From Escherichia phage vB_EcoP_SP7: DNA of 39,305 bases. Shown piece by piece: positions 19,305 to 22,120 of this stretch. The DNA lies in sequence record MT682707.1; one strand, 5' to 3'. Positions within the stretch are counted from its first letter, which is position 1; the number at the start of each line of letters is the position of its first letter. The position numbers and the translations under genes are program-made. Below the pieces are notes generated by a model that worked only from the letters and a program-made list of their open reading frames with translations, ran no database searches and was not told the DNA's origin.

Positions 19305-20189
19305 ATGTCTCAATCAGTTTATGCCGAGTTCGGCGTTAGCTCTAATGCAATCACTGGTTCCGTTGAGGACCTGAACGAACACCAGAAGTCTATGCTTGAA
19401 CAGGACGTAGCTGTTCGTGATGGCGACGACGCTATTACCTTCAAGCAACTGGAAGACGAAAACGAAGAGGCGACCGAAGAAGACGAGAACGTCGAAGAGA
19501 CTGAAGGTGAAGAAGATCACGAGTCAGATGACGAAGAGTCTGAGACCGATGGTGAGCATCCTGAGTTCATCGAACTAGGTGATGCACCAAAAGAGCTGAC
19601 CGAAAGTGTAACCGCTCTGGATGAAAACGAAGCTGCATTCGACGACATGGTGTCTTCTGCTGTAGAAGCTGGCAAGGTCACTGCTGATGAAATTACCGCT
19701 ATCAAGGCTGAATACGCCAAGGACGGTAAGCTGTCTGACGCATCCTACGCTAAGTTGCAGGAAGCAGGCTACACCAAGCGTTTCGTAGATTCGTTTGTCC
19801 GTGGTCAGGAAGCTCTTGCTGAACAGTATGCTGCTGGTGTGGTTCGCTACGCTGGTGGTGCTGAACAGTTTAATCGCATCCTGTCACACCTTGAGTCCAA
19901 CGACCCGTCAACTCGTGAAGCACTGGAAGCTGCTATCGTTCGTAAGGACATTGCTACTACCAAAGCTCTGCTGAATCTGGCTGGCAAGACTCTGGGTAAA
20001 GCTGTTGGTGTTAAACCTCAGCGTACCATCACCACTCATGCTAAACCTGTGGTCGCACCTAAGGCTCCTCAGGCCGAAGCATTCAGCTCTAAGGCTGACA
20101 TGATTAAGGCTATGAGTGACCCGCGATACCTGCGTGACACTAAATACACGATGGAAGTTCGCGCTAAGGTAGCTGCCTCAAGCCTGTAG
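19305..20189 (+). CDS. Capsid assembly (scaffolding) protein (gene 9)
   Basis: Highly acidic; conserved SYAKL.E.GYTK.F.DS..RGQEAL.EQY and IKAMSDPRY as in recalled T7 gp9. Confidence 0.85.
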   Translation: MSQSVYAEFGVSSNAITGSVEDLNEHQKSMLEQDVAVRDGDDAITFKQLEDENEEATEEDENVEETEGEEDHESDDEESETDGEHPEFIELGDAPKELTESVTALDENEAAFDDMVSSAVEAGKVTADEITAIKAEYAKDGKLSDASYAKLQEAGYTKRFVDSFVRGQEALAEQYAAGVVRYAGGAEQFNRILSHLESNDPSTREALEAAIVRKDIATTKALLNLAGKTLGKAVGVKPQRTITTHAKPVVAPKAPQAEAFSSKADMIKAMSDPRYLRDTKYTMEVRAKVAASSL

Positions 20190-20212
20190 GACTAAACTAT
20201 CACTATAGGGAG
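20190..20212 (+). promoter_or_regulatory. Phage-RNAP promoter (phi10 position), strong class III type
   Basis: ACTAAACTATCACTATAGGGAGA; the transcript starts with a GGGAGACC...GGTTTCCC 5' stem-loop like the T7 gene 10 leader. Confidence 0.9.
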
Positions 20213-20315
20213 ACCAAGAGACAGACTCAAGGTTTCCCTATTACTTCAGTCCATACGGATTGGGCGTACAGTAAGTAATAAACTTTATCTTTCAATTGAA
20301 TAGGAGAATTATCAT

Positions 20316-21359
20316 ATGGCAAACGTTCCGGGTCAGAAAATTGGTACAGACCAAGGTAAAGGCAAATCCAGTTCCGACGCTCTGGCGTTGTTCCTGAAGG
20401 TATTTGCTGGTGAAGTCCTGACCGCATTCACTCGCCGCTCTGTAACTGCTGATAAGCATATTGTCCGTACCATTCAGAACGGTAAGTCTGCTCAGTTCCC
20501 GGTCATGGGTCGCACCTCTGGTGTGTATCTGGCTCCGGGTGAGCGACTGTCCGATAAACGTAAAGGTATCAAACATACCGAGAAAGTGATTACCATTGAT
20601 GGTCTGCTGACTGCCGATGTGATGATTTTCGACATTGAAGACGCGATGAACCACTATGACGTGGCTGGTGAGTATTCCAACCAGTTGGGTGAAGCTCTGG
20701 CTATCGCTGCCGATGGTGCGGTTCTGGCTGAAATGGCTATCCTGTGTAACCTCCCATCCGCATCCAACGAGAACATCGCTGGTCTGGGTACCGCGTCAGT
20801 ACTGGAAGTTGGTAAGAAAGCTGACCTCGACACCCCAGCTAAACTGGGTGAGGCAATCATCGGTCAACTGACCATTGCTCGTGCGAAGCTGACCTCCAAC
20901 TACGTTCCTGCTGGCGACCGTTACTTCTACACTACGCCGGACAACTACTCTGCAATCCTCGCGGCTCTGATGCCGAACGCTGCTAACTATGCTGCGCTGA
21001 TTGACCCAGAGACTGGTAACATCCGTAACGTTATGGGCTTCGTTGTTGTTGAAGTTCCGCATCTGGTTCAGGGTGGTGCTGGTGAGACTCGTGGTGAAGA
21101 TGGTATCTCTATCGCTTCCGGCCAGAAACACGCATTCCCGGCGACTGCTACTGGCGACGTTAAAGTTGCTATGGATAACGTTGTGGGTCTGTTCTCTCAC
21201 CGTTCTGCTGTGGGTACTGTGAAGCTGCGTGATTTGGCGCTGGAACGTGACCGTGACGTCGATGCTCAGGGTGACCTGATTGTTGGTAAGTACGCTATGG
21301 GTCACGGTGGTCTTCGTCCTGAAGCGGCTGGCGCACTGGTTTTCAGCTCAGCGATGTAA
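20316..21359 (+). CDS. Major capsid protein 10A
   Basis: Collinear with recalled T7 gp10A (LALFLKVF.GEVLTAF, KHTEKVITIDGLLTADV, DIEDAMNHYDV, ILAALMPNAANYAALIDPE, SAVGTVKLRDLALER, KYAMGHGGLRPEAAGA). Confidence 0.98.
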   Translation: MANVPGQKIGTDQGKGKSSSDALALFLKVFAGEVLTAFTRRSVTADKHIVRTIQNGKSAQFPVMGRTSGVYLAPGERLSDKRKGIKHTEKVITIDGLLTADVMIFDIEDAMNHYDVAGEYSNQLGEALAIAADGAVLAEMAILCNLPSASNENIAGLGTASVLEVGKKADLDTPAKLGEAIIGQLTIARAKLTSNYVPAGDRYFYTTPDNYSAILAALMPNAANYAALIDPETGNIRNVMGFVVVEVPHLVQGGAGETRGEDGISIASGQKHAFPATATGDVKVAMDNVVGLFSHRSAVGTVKLRDLALERDRDVDAQGDLIVGKYAMGHGGLRPEAAGALVFSSAM

Positions 21360-21490
21360 GCACCTTTAGCCAACCTAACGTCGCTACAGTAGCGGCCGCA
21401 CCTGAAGAGGAGACTCTAACTCCTCAACAGAAAGCTGCGCGTACTCGTGCTGCGAATAGGGCCGCTAAACTGGCTAAGTCCAACAACTAA
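20316..21490 (+). CDS. Minor capsid protein 10B, predicted product of a -1 ribosomal frameshift near the end of gene 10 (about 391 aa)
   Basis: Slippery heptamer G GTT TTC at 21338-21344 (same as I recall for T7); the -1 frame stays open to TAA at 21488-21490 and encodes ...EETLTPQQKAARTRAANRAAK, resembling the recalled T7 10B tail (EETLTPAQEAARTRAANKARK). Confidence 0.6.
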
Positions 21491-21493
21491 TTG

Positions 21494-21536
21494 AAACCCC
21501 TTGGGTGCCTTCGGGTGCTTGAGGGGTTTTTTGCTT
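21494..21536 (+). terminator. T-phi-like terminator for phage RNAP (also intrinsic-terminator-like)
   Basis: AACCCCTTGGGTGCCTTCGGGTGCTTGAGGGGTTTTTTG: GC-rich hairpin plus U-tract, very similar to recalled T7 T-phi and in the same position after gene 10. Confidence 0.85.
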
Positions 21537-21553
21537 AAAGTGAGAGGAGACTT

Positions 21554-22120
21554 ATGGCTCAATACATTCCACTGAATGCTAACGATGACTTAGATGCCAT
21601 CAACGATATGTTAGCCGCTATCGGTGAACCAGCAGTCCTACAGCTTGACGAGGGGAACGCTGACGTCTCGAACGCTCAACGTATCCTGCATCGTGTCAAT
21701 CGTCAGGTCCAAGCTAAAGGCTGGAACTTTAACATCAACGAAGCTGCTGTCCTGACACCTGACATCCAAGACAATAGGATTCGATTCTTGCCGTCATACC
21801 TTCGTGTAATGACCGCTGGGGCCACCAGCTACTACAGCAACATGGGTGGGTACCTGTACGACCTGTCCACCCAGTCAACCACTTTCACCGACCCTATCAC
21901 GGTAGAGCTTGTGGAGATGAAGCCATTCTCCGAGATGCCTGTGGTATTCAGGGACTACATCGTAACTAAAGCTAGCCGTGAGTTCAACGCTAAGTTCTTC
22001 GGGAGCCCAGAGTCAGAGATATACCTTCGTGAGCAGGAAGCAGAACTCTATCAGCAGGTTATGGAGTACGAGATGGACACTGGTCGCTACAACATGATGT
22101 CTGACATCGGGAGGGACTAA
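21554..22120 (+). CDS. Tail tubular protein A (gene 11)
   Basis: RILHRVNRQVQAKGWNFNINE, GGYLYD, YIVTKASREFNAKFFG..E.E, EYEMD.GRYNM match recalled T7 gp11. Confidence 0.95.
   Translation: MAQYIPLNANDDLDAINDMLAAIGEPAVLQLDEGNADVSNAQRILHRVNRQVQAKGWNFNINEAAVLTPDIQDNRIRFLPSYLRVMTAGATSYYSNMGGYLYDLSTQSTTFTDPITVELVEMKPFSEMPVVFRDYIVTKASREFNAKFFGSPESEIYLREQEAELYQQVMEYEMDTGRYNMMSDIGRD

What the first reader, a model, noticed from the sequence alone, without database searches (positions are those of the whole stretch)
21336..21490. Conserved programmed -1 frameshift producing a capsid 10B extension
The heptamer G GTT TTC (21338-21344) lies 13 nt before the 10A stop and the -1 frame is open for 48 more codons ending 4 nt before the terminator; the extension resembles the recalled T7 10B tail (EETLTP..AARTRAAN).
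Basis: partly seen in the sequence, partly recalled or inferred. Interest (0 to 1): 0.5.

Follow-up and report, generated by a model that had tools for sequence, protein, structure and literature searches.

The report
T7-type capsid 10A/10B frameshift site
This is the well-known trick of T7-like phages, in which some ribosomes slip back one base near the end of the major capsid gene to make a longer minor capsid protein; it is real here but ordinary.

Summary
The window is a T7-like phage of the genus Kayfunavirus. Its closest relative is Klebsiella phage SEA1f, 95% identical. Gene 10A (20316..21359, 347 aa) carries G_GTT_TTC at 21338-21344, in the same frame and alignment position as the T7 gene 10 shift site. 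The -1 frame has no start codon. It runs 48 codons past the slip to TAA at 21488-21490, 3 nt before the T-phi-like terminator. The predicted 10B is 391 aa and 41.0 kDa.

The tail is homologous to the T7 10B tail. Across five Studiervirinae genera it evolves as protein in the -1 frame: window versus T7 shows 12 synonymous and 4 non-synonymous codon changes in a 19-codon core. In 74 metagenomic relatives, 24 of 25 with the in-frame heptamer have a long -1 extension. Relatives without an extension use non-slippery synonymous codons such as GTC TTC.

The feature is already documented. The EcoDS1 and CR44b records annotate it. K1F, whose tail is 95% identical, has been engineered through g10b fusions. 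Kvp1 10B was confirmed by mass spectrometry.

What stimulates the slip is unresolved. A candidate hairpin 5 nt downstream has no covariation support.

The parts
20191..20213 (+). Phage RNA polymerase promoter in front of gene 10 (phi10-type, ...ACTATCACTATAGGGAGA). Context only.
   Evidence: Positional homology to the promoter annotated in EcoDS1; sequence read.
20316..21359 (+). Gene 10A, major capsid protein, 347 aa, 36.3 kDa, the zero-frame product.
   Evidence: ORF list. Pfam Gp10A-like PF21703, E 1.3e-105. 96-97% DNA identity to Kayfunavirus capsid genes.
21338..21344 (+). Slippery heptamer G_GTT_TTC (Val342-Phe343 of 10A), the proposed -1 shift site.
   Evidence: Sequence. Identical heptamer at the homologous position in T7 and in 25 of 74 IMG/VR relatives. 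It is the only GGTTTTC on the + strand of the window. G_GU is named as the X_XX part of the T7 gene 10 shift site in PMC5009743.
21344..21490 (+). The -1 frame extension specific to 10B: 48 codons (QLSDVSTFSQPNVATVAAAPEEETLTPQQKAARTRAANRAAKLAKSNN) plus TAA. C21344 is read twice. The full 10B is 20316..21344 joined to 21344..21490, 391 aa, 41.0 kDa.
   Evidence: Translation. No ATG, GTG or TTG in the -1 ORF 21323-21487. Codon-position substitution pattern 7/5/18 across 14 phages. PHROG 12582 'head protein', E 2.6e-9.
21350..21385 (+). Candidate stimulatory hairpin: an 8-bp stem (AGCGAUGU / ACGUCGCU) with a 20-nt loop, starting 5 nt after the heptamer and spanning the 10A stop. Unproven.
   Evidence: Part of the MFE fold. 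In 9 Kayfunavirus sequences, 98.6% of cells pair, but there are only one-sided changes and no compensatory ones.
21494..21529 (+). T-phi-type transcription terminator (AACCCCTTGGGTGCC-TTCG-GGTGCTTGAGGGGTT, then a T-run), 3 nt after the 10B stop. It contains the CCCC that in T7 is implicated in frameshift stimulation.
   Evidence: Fold; terminator scan; EcoDS1 annotation 'terminator phiTE'; PMC5009743 on the T7 CCCC.

Best explanation
The window is a Kayfunavirus, a T7-like phage. Late mRNA from the gene 10 promoter is translated into the 347-aa major capsid protein 10A. In a minority of rounds (about 10% in T7), the ribosome holds tRNA-Val on GUU in the P site and tRNA-Phe on UUC in the A site. 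Both tRNAs then slip one base back, to GGU and UUU at G_GUU_UUC (21338-21344). The ribosome misses the 10A stop at 21357 and reads 48 more codons in the -1 frame to UAA at 21488. This gives the 391-aa, 41-kDa minor capsid protein 10B, which co-assembles with 10A and shows its C-terminal tail on the capsid surface. Shown here: the site, its phase, the start-less -1 ORF, homology of the tail to T7 10B, purifying selection in the -1 frame, and co-occurrence of heptamer and extension. Inferred: that the slip happens in this phage, its efficiency, and what stimulates it. The function of the conserved basic C-terminal motif (LTPxQKAARTRAAN-K/R-A-A/R-K) is unknown.
For: The heptamer is identical to the T7 site, in the same phase and alignment position. 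The -1 ORF has no ATG, GTG or TTG.

The tail core is conserved in Kayfunavirus, Teseptimavirus, Berlinvirus, Unyawovirus and Elunavirus. Variable columns fall 7/5/18 at codon positions 1/2/3 of the -1 frame. Window versus T7 shows 21 differences in 57 nt, 14 of them at third positions, with 12 synonymous and 4 non-synonymous codon changes.

Among 74 IMG/VR relatives, 24 of 25 with the in-frame heptamer have a -1 extension of at least 39 codons. Of the 49 without it, 20 do (Fisher p = 2.5e-6; the loci are not phylogenetically independent). Of those 20, most encode Big_2-like domains behind other slip-prone motifs, and three simply read into the frame of gene 11. Relatives with no extension keep Val-Phe but use GTC, GTA or GTG before TTC.

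The EcoDS1 record says gp10A 'may be translated via slippery sequence' and marks a 'region of similarity to gp10B'. CR44b annotates a joined 10B CDS whose length corresponds to 391 aa.

In K1F the tail DNA is 95% identical. GFP fused to the end of g10b gives stable fluorescent phage, and g10b is used for display (PMC6277420; PMC13370021). Kvp1 10B, made at TTTTCA, was confirmed by MS/MS (PMC2579914). T7 makes 10B in about 10% of translations (PMC1635266).
Against: There are no protein data for this phage. No stimulatory element is demonstrated. The candidate hairpin has no compensatory changes. Complementarity between the slip-proximal region and the terminator is no better than in shuffles, for the window or for T7. 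No Shine-Dalgarno-like element lies within about 20 nt upstream (by eye). No Rfam family matches. CR44b mass spectrometry notes are attached to 10A, not 10B. One close relative, L008, has the heptamer but a tail moved out of the -1 frame by a 1-nt deletion, so 10B may be dispensable.
Confidence: 0.9

Rival explanations
1. The extension is an untranslated relic. The region 21360-21490 would be only the 3' UTR of gene 10, conserved for mRNA stability or terminator function, and this phage would make only 10A.
For: 10B may be dispensable. L008 has lost the -1 phase of the tail. Many T7-like relatives have no extension at all. No stimulatory structure is proven.
Against: Substitutions concentrate at third positions of the -1 frame. 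Synonymous changes far outnumber non-synonymous ones across five genera, which RNA-level conservation does not predict. The frame stays open in 24 of 25 heptamer-bearing relatives. K1F g10b fusions are expressed on virions.
Confidence: 0.04
2. The tail is a separate small gene translated from its own start, as several records annotate it (Yepe2 '10B', DU_PP_II, Stepyanka).
For: Some GenBank records annotate a stand-alone 40-50 aa CDS over the tail. PHROG 12582 is built from such entries.
Against: In the window the -1 ORF (21323-21487) has no ATG, GTG or TTG, only one CTG at codon 49 of 55. The ORF listing reports no + strand ORF there. No ribosome-binding site is evident.
Confidence: 0.02
3. 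The longer product arises by RNA polymerase slippage on the T4 run, giving mRNAs with one base missing, or by a ribosomal slip at another codon in the 34-nt overlap (21323-21356), rather than by tandem tRNA slippage on G_GUU_UUC.
For: The sequence alone cannot tell a transcriptional from a translational shift. Stepyanka has A_GTT_TTC and BA14 has GGTTTTAAAAAAG, so P-site re-pairing on GGU is not strictly kept.
Against: A run of four T is much shorter than the homopolymer tracts known to cause productive transcriptional slippage (general knowledge). The TTTTC/TTTTA core is what is conserved, and the heptamer is synonymously invariant wherever this tail exists. In T7 the site is treated as a ribosomal shift site (PMC5009743).
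Confidence: 0.04

Closest known systems
Bacteriophage T7 gene 10A/10B programmed -1 ribosomal frameshift (Condron, Atkins and Gesteland 1991; reviewed in PMC5009743)
   Same: Identical heptamer G_GUU_UUC at the homologous Val-Phe codons, 9-12 nt before the 10A stop. The -1 tail is homologous (…EETLTPxQxAARTRAAN…). The 10B stop lies just upstream of a T-phi terminator that carries the CCCC.
   Different: The tail is 48 codons here and 56 in T7. The proximal half of the tail is unrelated in sequence. T7 has a GGGGG run about 17 nt after the site that the window lacks, so the 3' context differs. 10A is 71% identical.
Kayfunavirus gene 10b: K1F g10b (PMC6277420, PMC13370021), EcoDS1 'region of similarity to gp10B', CR44b joined 10B CDS
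   Same: Same genus, same heptamer, same 48-codon tail (94-96% DNA identity; 100% in SEA1f), same 44-residue net extension, same terminator.
   Different: Only point differences (for example QLSD against QPSG, and ...KLAKSNN against ...KLAESNN). This phage itself is not in the collection searched; its best genome match is 95.4%.
Kluyvera phage Kvp1 10B (PMC2579914)
   Same: A -1 shift on the poly-U/Phe site (TTTTCA) of the capsid gene, with the product verified by MS/MS.
   Different: Different genus. The product is about 42.1 kDa. Its tail was not compared here.
T3 / phiYeO3-12 type capsid frameshift, and Ig-like domains added by frameshift (PMC5009743; PMC2579914)
   Same: A -1 frameshift near the 3' end of the T7-family capsid gene gives a minor, surface-exposed extension.
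   Different: Those shifts occur at lysyl codons and add an Ig-like domain. The window's tail is short, has no Pfam domain, and uses the Phe site. Big_2 extensions behind A_AAG-type sites were seen in more distant relatives.

Membership tests
T7-type gene 10A/10B -1 programmed ribosomal frameshift | Slippery heptamer G_GUU_UUC in the zero frame, a few codons before the 10A stop, at the homologous position of a T7-family (Gp10A-like) capsid gene | tested here: met
   21338-21344, phase G|GTT|TTC, 12 nt before TAA. T7 has the same heptamer at the aligned codons. Pfam Gp10A-like, E 1.3e-105.
T7-type gene 10A/10B -1 programmed ribosomal frameshift | A -1 ORF that overlaps the end of 10A, has no initiation codon of its own and extends past the 10A stop | tested here: met
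   The -1 frame is open over 21323-21487, with no ATG, GTG or TTG. It runs 48 codons after the slip. The +1 frame closes after 3 codons.
T7-type gene 10A/10B -1 programmed ribosomal frameshift | Extension homologous to the T7 10B tail and evolving as protein in the -1 frame | tested here: met
   The core TLTPxQKAARTRAAN(K/R)A(A/R)K is shared with T7 and four other genera. Variable columns are 7/5/18 by codon position. There are 12 synonymous and 4 non-synonymous codon changes against T7. PHROG 12582, E 2.6e-9.
T7-type gene 10A/10B -1 programmed ribosomal frameshift | A 3' stimulatory element (in T7, distal sequence including CCCC of the terminator) | tested here: inconclusive
   The terminator with CCCC is present about 150 nt 3' of the site, but it is needed for termination anyway. 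Slip-region to terminator complementarity is not above shuffles. The local 8-bp hairpin is compatible but shows no covariation.
T7-type gene 10A/10B -1 programmed ribosomal frameshift | Two gene 10 products in virions, with the longer a minority species carrying the junction peptide | not testable with these tools
   Needs SDS-PAGE or MS of this phage. Indirect support comes from K1F g10b::gfp fluorescent phage, Kvp1 MS/MS and about 10% in T7.
Frameshift-added Ig-like capsid decoration (T3 type) | Extension folds as an Ig-like (for example Big_2) domain | tested here: not met
   There is no Pfam domain in the 48-aa tail of the window's 10B. Big_2 was found only in extensions of more distant relatives, for example L042 at E 5e-20.

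The most novel reading that the evidence does not exclude
The most novel reading not excluded has two parts. First, the tail motif LTPxQKAARTRAAN(K/R)A(A/R)K, kept under purifying selection across at least five Studiervirinae genera although 10B looks dispensable, may have a specific, undescribed function such as a binding partner on the host or on the capsid. Second, in Kayfunavirus the shift may be stimulated by a local hairpin that spans the 10A stop (21350-21385), rather than by the distal terminator element described for T7.
Probability: 0.15. Interest if true: 0.4.

Novelty: already known. Interest (0 to 1): 0.12.

Why it matters
The main value is for annotation. Gene 10 of this phage should carry a second, joined CDS (20316..21344, 21344..21490) for a 391-aa minor capsid protein. 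Many close relatives either omit it or mislabel 10A as 'minor capsid protein'. In practice, the 10B C-terminus is the natural low-copy display site in T7 and K1F, so the same engineering handle exists here. It does not open a new biological question. What stimulates T7-type gene 10 frameshifting, and what the conserved tail does, remain open, but this window adds no special leverage on either.

Tried and rejected
- A tblastn search with the 50-aa tail against the phage collection found nothing, probably because of low-complexity masking. It was replaced by a distant blastn search of the tail DNA, which hit 190 records.
- Long-range pairing between the 40 nt after the heptamer and the terminator was no better than dinucleotide shuffles, for the window (73 of 300 shuffles as good) or for T7 (119 of 300).
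- The local hairpin 21350-21385 is compatible in 9 sequences but has no compensatory changes, and shuffles are uninformative because the 3' arm is invariant. A competing small hairpin (GTCGCTA-CAG-TAGCGGC) uses the same 3' arm.
- The Rfam scan of 20150-21650 gave only a chance sub-threshold snoRNA hit.
- Pfam finds no domain in the tail.
- The primary T7 papers (PMC209055, PMC328964, PMC5952207) are not held, so T7 details are cited from reviews and secondary papers.
- A stand-alone tail gene was considered and rejected because there is no start codon.
- Openness of the -1 frame was considered as evidence and rejected as weak: 12 of 34 long ORFs in the window show it.

Full report
**What the window is.** The gene 10 region (20200-21560) is 96-97% identical to many Kayfunavirus genomes, including ST31, SH3 and EcoDS1. 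Over bases 1-25000 the best match is Klebsiella phage SEA1f at 95.4%, and EcoDS1 is at 92.8%. The window is therefore a T7-like phage (Autographiviridae, Studiervirinae, Kayfunavirus). It is close to deposited genomes in the collection searched but identical to none.

**Checking the observation.**
- Gene 10A is the ORF 20316..21359 (+), 347 aa, ending ...RPEAAGALVFSSAM*. It matches Pfam Gp10A-like with E 1.3e-105.
- GGTTTTC lies at 21338-21344, phased G|GTT|TTC. Twelve nucleotides separate it from the TAA at 21357.
- The -1 frame read from 21338 gives GFQLSDVSTFSQPNVATVAAAPEEETLTPQQKAARTRAANRAAKLAKSNN*, with the stop at 21488-21490.
- A strong hairpin with a T-run follows after 3 nt. It is homologous to the 'phiTE' terminator annotated in EcoDS1.
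- If the slip occurs with Val and Phe decoded in the zero frame, 10B is 343 + 48 = 391 aa and 41.0 kDa. 10A is 36.3 kDa.

**Is it more than chance?** Within the window alone, barely.
- Twelve of 34 long + strand ORFs have a -1 frame open for at least 43 codons past their stop, mostly because the next gene lies in that frame.
- GGTTTTC occurs once on the + strand, against about 2.4 expected.
- Gene 10 is, however, the only one of the 34 with an in-frame slippery heptamer in its last 60 nt.
- Its -1 ORF is not the next gene, because gene 11 starts at 21554, beyond the terminator.
- The -1 ORF (21323-21487) has no ATG, GTG or TTG, so it can only be translated by ribosomes arriving from 10A.

**Comparative evidence.** T7 itself (NC_001604) has the same heptamer at the aligned codons (...AAGAVVF against ...AAGALVF) and the tail ...EETLTPAQEAARTRAANKARKEAELAAATAEQ. 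I collected tails from Kayfunavirus (EcoDS1, K1F, CR44b, SEA1f, P7124, PRF-SP2), Teseptimavirus (T7), Berlinvirus (BA14, Yepe2, A7, RN5i1, K12P1.1), Unyawovirus (DU_PP_II) and Elunavirus (Stepyanka).
- All share the core TLTPxQKAARTRAAN(K/R)A(A/R)K.
- In a gap-free 19-codon core from 14 phages, variable columns fall 7/5/18 at codon positions 1/2/3 of the -1 frame.
- Window versus T7 differs at 21 of 57 nt, 14 of them at third positions, giving 12 synonymous and 4 non-synonymous codon changes.

This is the signature of a translated, selected peptide in the -1 frame, not of a conserved RNA.

**Heptamer and extension go together.** Of 74 IMG/VR relatives where the 10A stop could be located (44-99% capsid identity), 25 have the in-frame heptamer. 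Of those 25, 24 have a -1 extension of at least 39 codons. Of the 49 without the heptamer, 29 have short -1 frames.
- Most of the 20 heptamer-less loci with long -1 frames encode Big_2-like extensions behind other slip-prone motifs such as A_AAG, G_GTT_TTT and C_GTT_TTC. Big_2 was confirmed by Pfam for two of them.
- Three others simply run into the frame of gene 11.
- Relatives with no extension keep Val-Phe but spell it GTC, GTA or GTG before TTC.
- The Fisher p of 2.5e-6 overstates independence, because the loci are related.

**Prior knowledge.** The same feature is already recorded in this genus.
- CR44b has a joined 10B CDS whose length equals 391 aa.
- For K1F, the tail DNA is 94.7-95.3% identical to the window's. 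PMC6277420 states that gene 10 undergoes a -1 frameshift adding 44 triplets. That paper also shows that GFP fused to the end of g10b gives stable fluorescent phage. PMC13370021 uses the same locus for display. The window's 10B is likewise 44 residues longer than 10A.
- For Kvp1, MS/MS proved a -1 shift at TTTTCA. The same paper contrasts this poly-U type with the lysyl-codon shifts of T3 and phiYeO3-12 (PMC2579914).
- The Atkins et al. review lists G_GU as the X_XX part of the T7 gene 10 site. It says a CCCC in the terminator, more than 200 nt downstream, is involved, and that the T7 extension, unlike that of T3, is not Ig-like (PMC5009743).
- T7 makes 10B in about 10% of translations (PMC1635266).

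**Mechanism.** The best-supported account is tandem -1 slippage of tRNA-Val and tRNA-Phe from GUU UUC to GGU UUU. In the new frame, the A-site tRNA-Phe pairs fully and the P-site tRNA-Val pairs partly; this rests on established knowledge of X_XXY_YYZ sites. The ribosome then reads to the UAA at 21488.

The stimulator is unresolved.
- The MFE fold places an 8-bp stem (21350-21357 with 21378-21385) 5 nt after the heptamer, spanning the 10A stop.
- In nine Kayfunavirus sequences it pairs in 98.6% of cells, but only through one-sided changes (A-U to G-U, U-G to C-G). There is no compensatory pair, and the 3' arm is invariant.
- A rival small hairpin shares that arm.
- Complementarity between the slip-proximal 40 nt and the terminator is not above shuffles, for the window or for T7.
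- No SD-like element lies within about 20 nt upstream (by eye). No Rfam family matches.

**Rivals.**
- *An untranslated relic.* This is contradicted by the codon-position pattern.
- *A stand-alone small gene.* Some records annotate one, but the window's frame has no start codon.
- *Transcriptional slippage on four T.* This is unlikely on general grounds and cannot be excluded by sequence.

**Verdict.** The feature is an ordinary, already documented property of T7-like phages and of this genus. Its practical consequence is annotation: a joined 10B CDS, 20316..21344 with 21344..21490.

Noticed in passing
L051 (IMGVR_UViG_3300034349_000001) about 1240-2680; L060 (IMGVR_UViG_3300034127_000003) about 960-2400: Two environmental T7-like contigs (capsid 73% identical to the window's) have G_GTT_TTT at the homologous slip position, followed by a 470-codon open -1 frame. 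It starts with a Big_2 domain (Pfam E 1.5e-10). By eye it then contains GDSL-like 'ALFEGDSLT' and 'DGTHSN' motifs. This could be an enzyme displayed on the capsid by frameshift, but Pfam gave no hit for that part.
   Followed up: partly
L010, L012-L022, L069, L073, L074 (region just after locus position about 2520): Kayfunavirus capsid genes 94-98% identical to the window's carry, behind the same G_GTT_TTC, an unrelated 84-88-codon -1 extension in place of the T7-type tail. It matches PHROG 7473 (unknown function, E 5.6e-37) and has no Pfam hit. The 10B tail therefore appears to be a swappable module, with the exchange boundary at the slip site.
   Followed up: partly
L008 (IMGVR_UViG_2974615076_000001) 2523-2600: This locus has the heptamer, but a 1-nt deletion at the 10A stop (TAAG to TAG) moves the T7-type tail into the +1 frame. 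A -1 shift would then add only 10 codons past the stop. This is either natural loss of 10B or a sequencing error.
   Followed up: partly
L090 (phage BA14, EU734171) about 425-445; L089 (Erwinia phage Stepyanka) about 430-450: BA14 has GGTTTTAAAAAAG at the shift position, which contains the dnaX-type A_AAA_AAG. Stepyanka has A_GTT_TTC. The T7-type tail is thus reached through variant slip sequences in other genera.
   Followed up: no
L083 (Klebsiella phage SEA1f, OR287805) 322-1315; also L002, L003: The closest relative's record splits the capsid gene into two overlapping CDS, probably because of an indel in that record, and does not annotate 10B. Several other records label the plain 347-aa 10A ORF 'minor capsid protein (10B)'. 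The window's 10A is intact.
   Followed up: no
window 21416-21562 (- strand): A 48-aa TTG-started ORF on the minus strand overlaps the 10B tail and the terminator. It is almost certainly spurious, because T7-like phages are transcribed from one strand only (general knowledge) and the + strand -1 frame carries the coding signature here.
   Followed up: no
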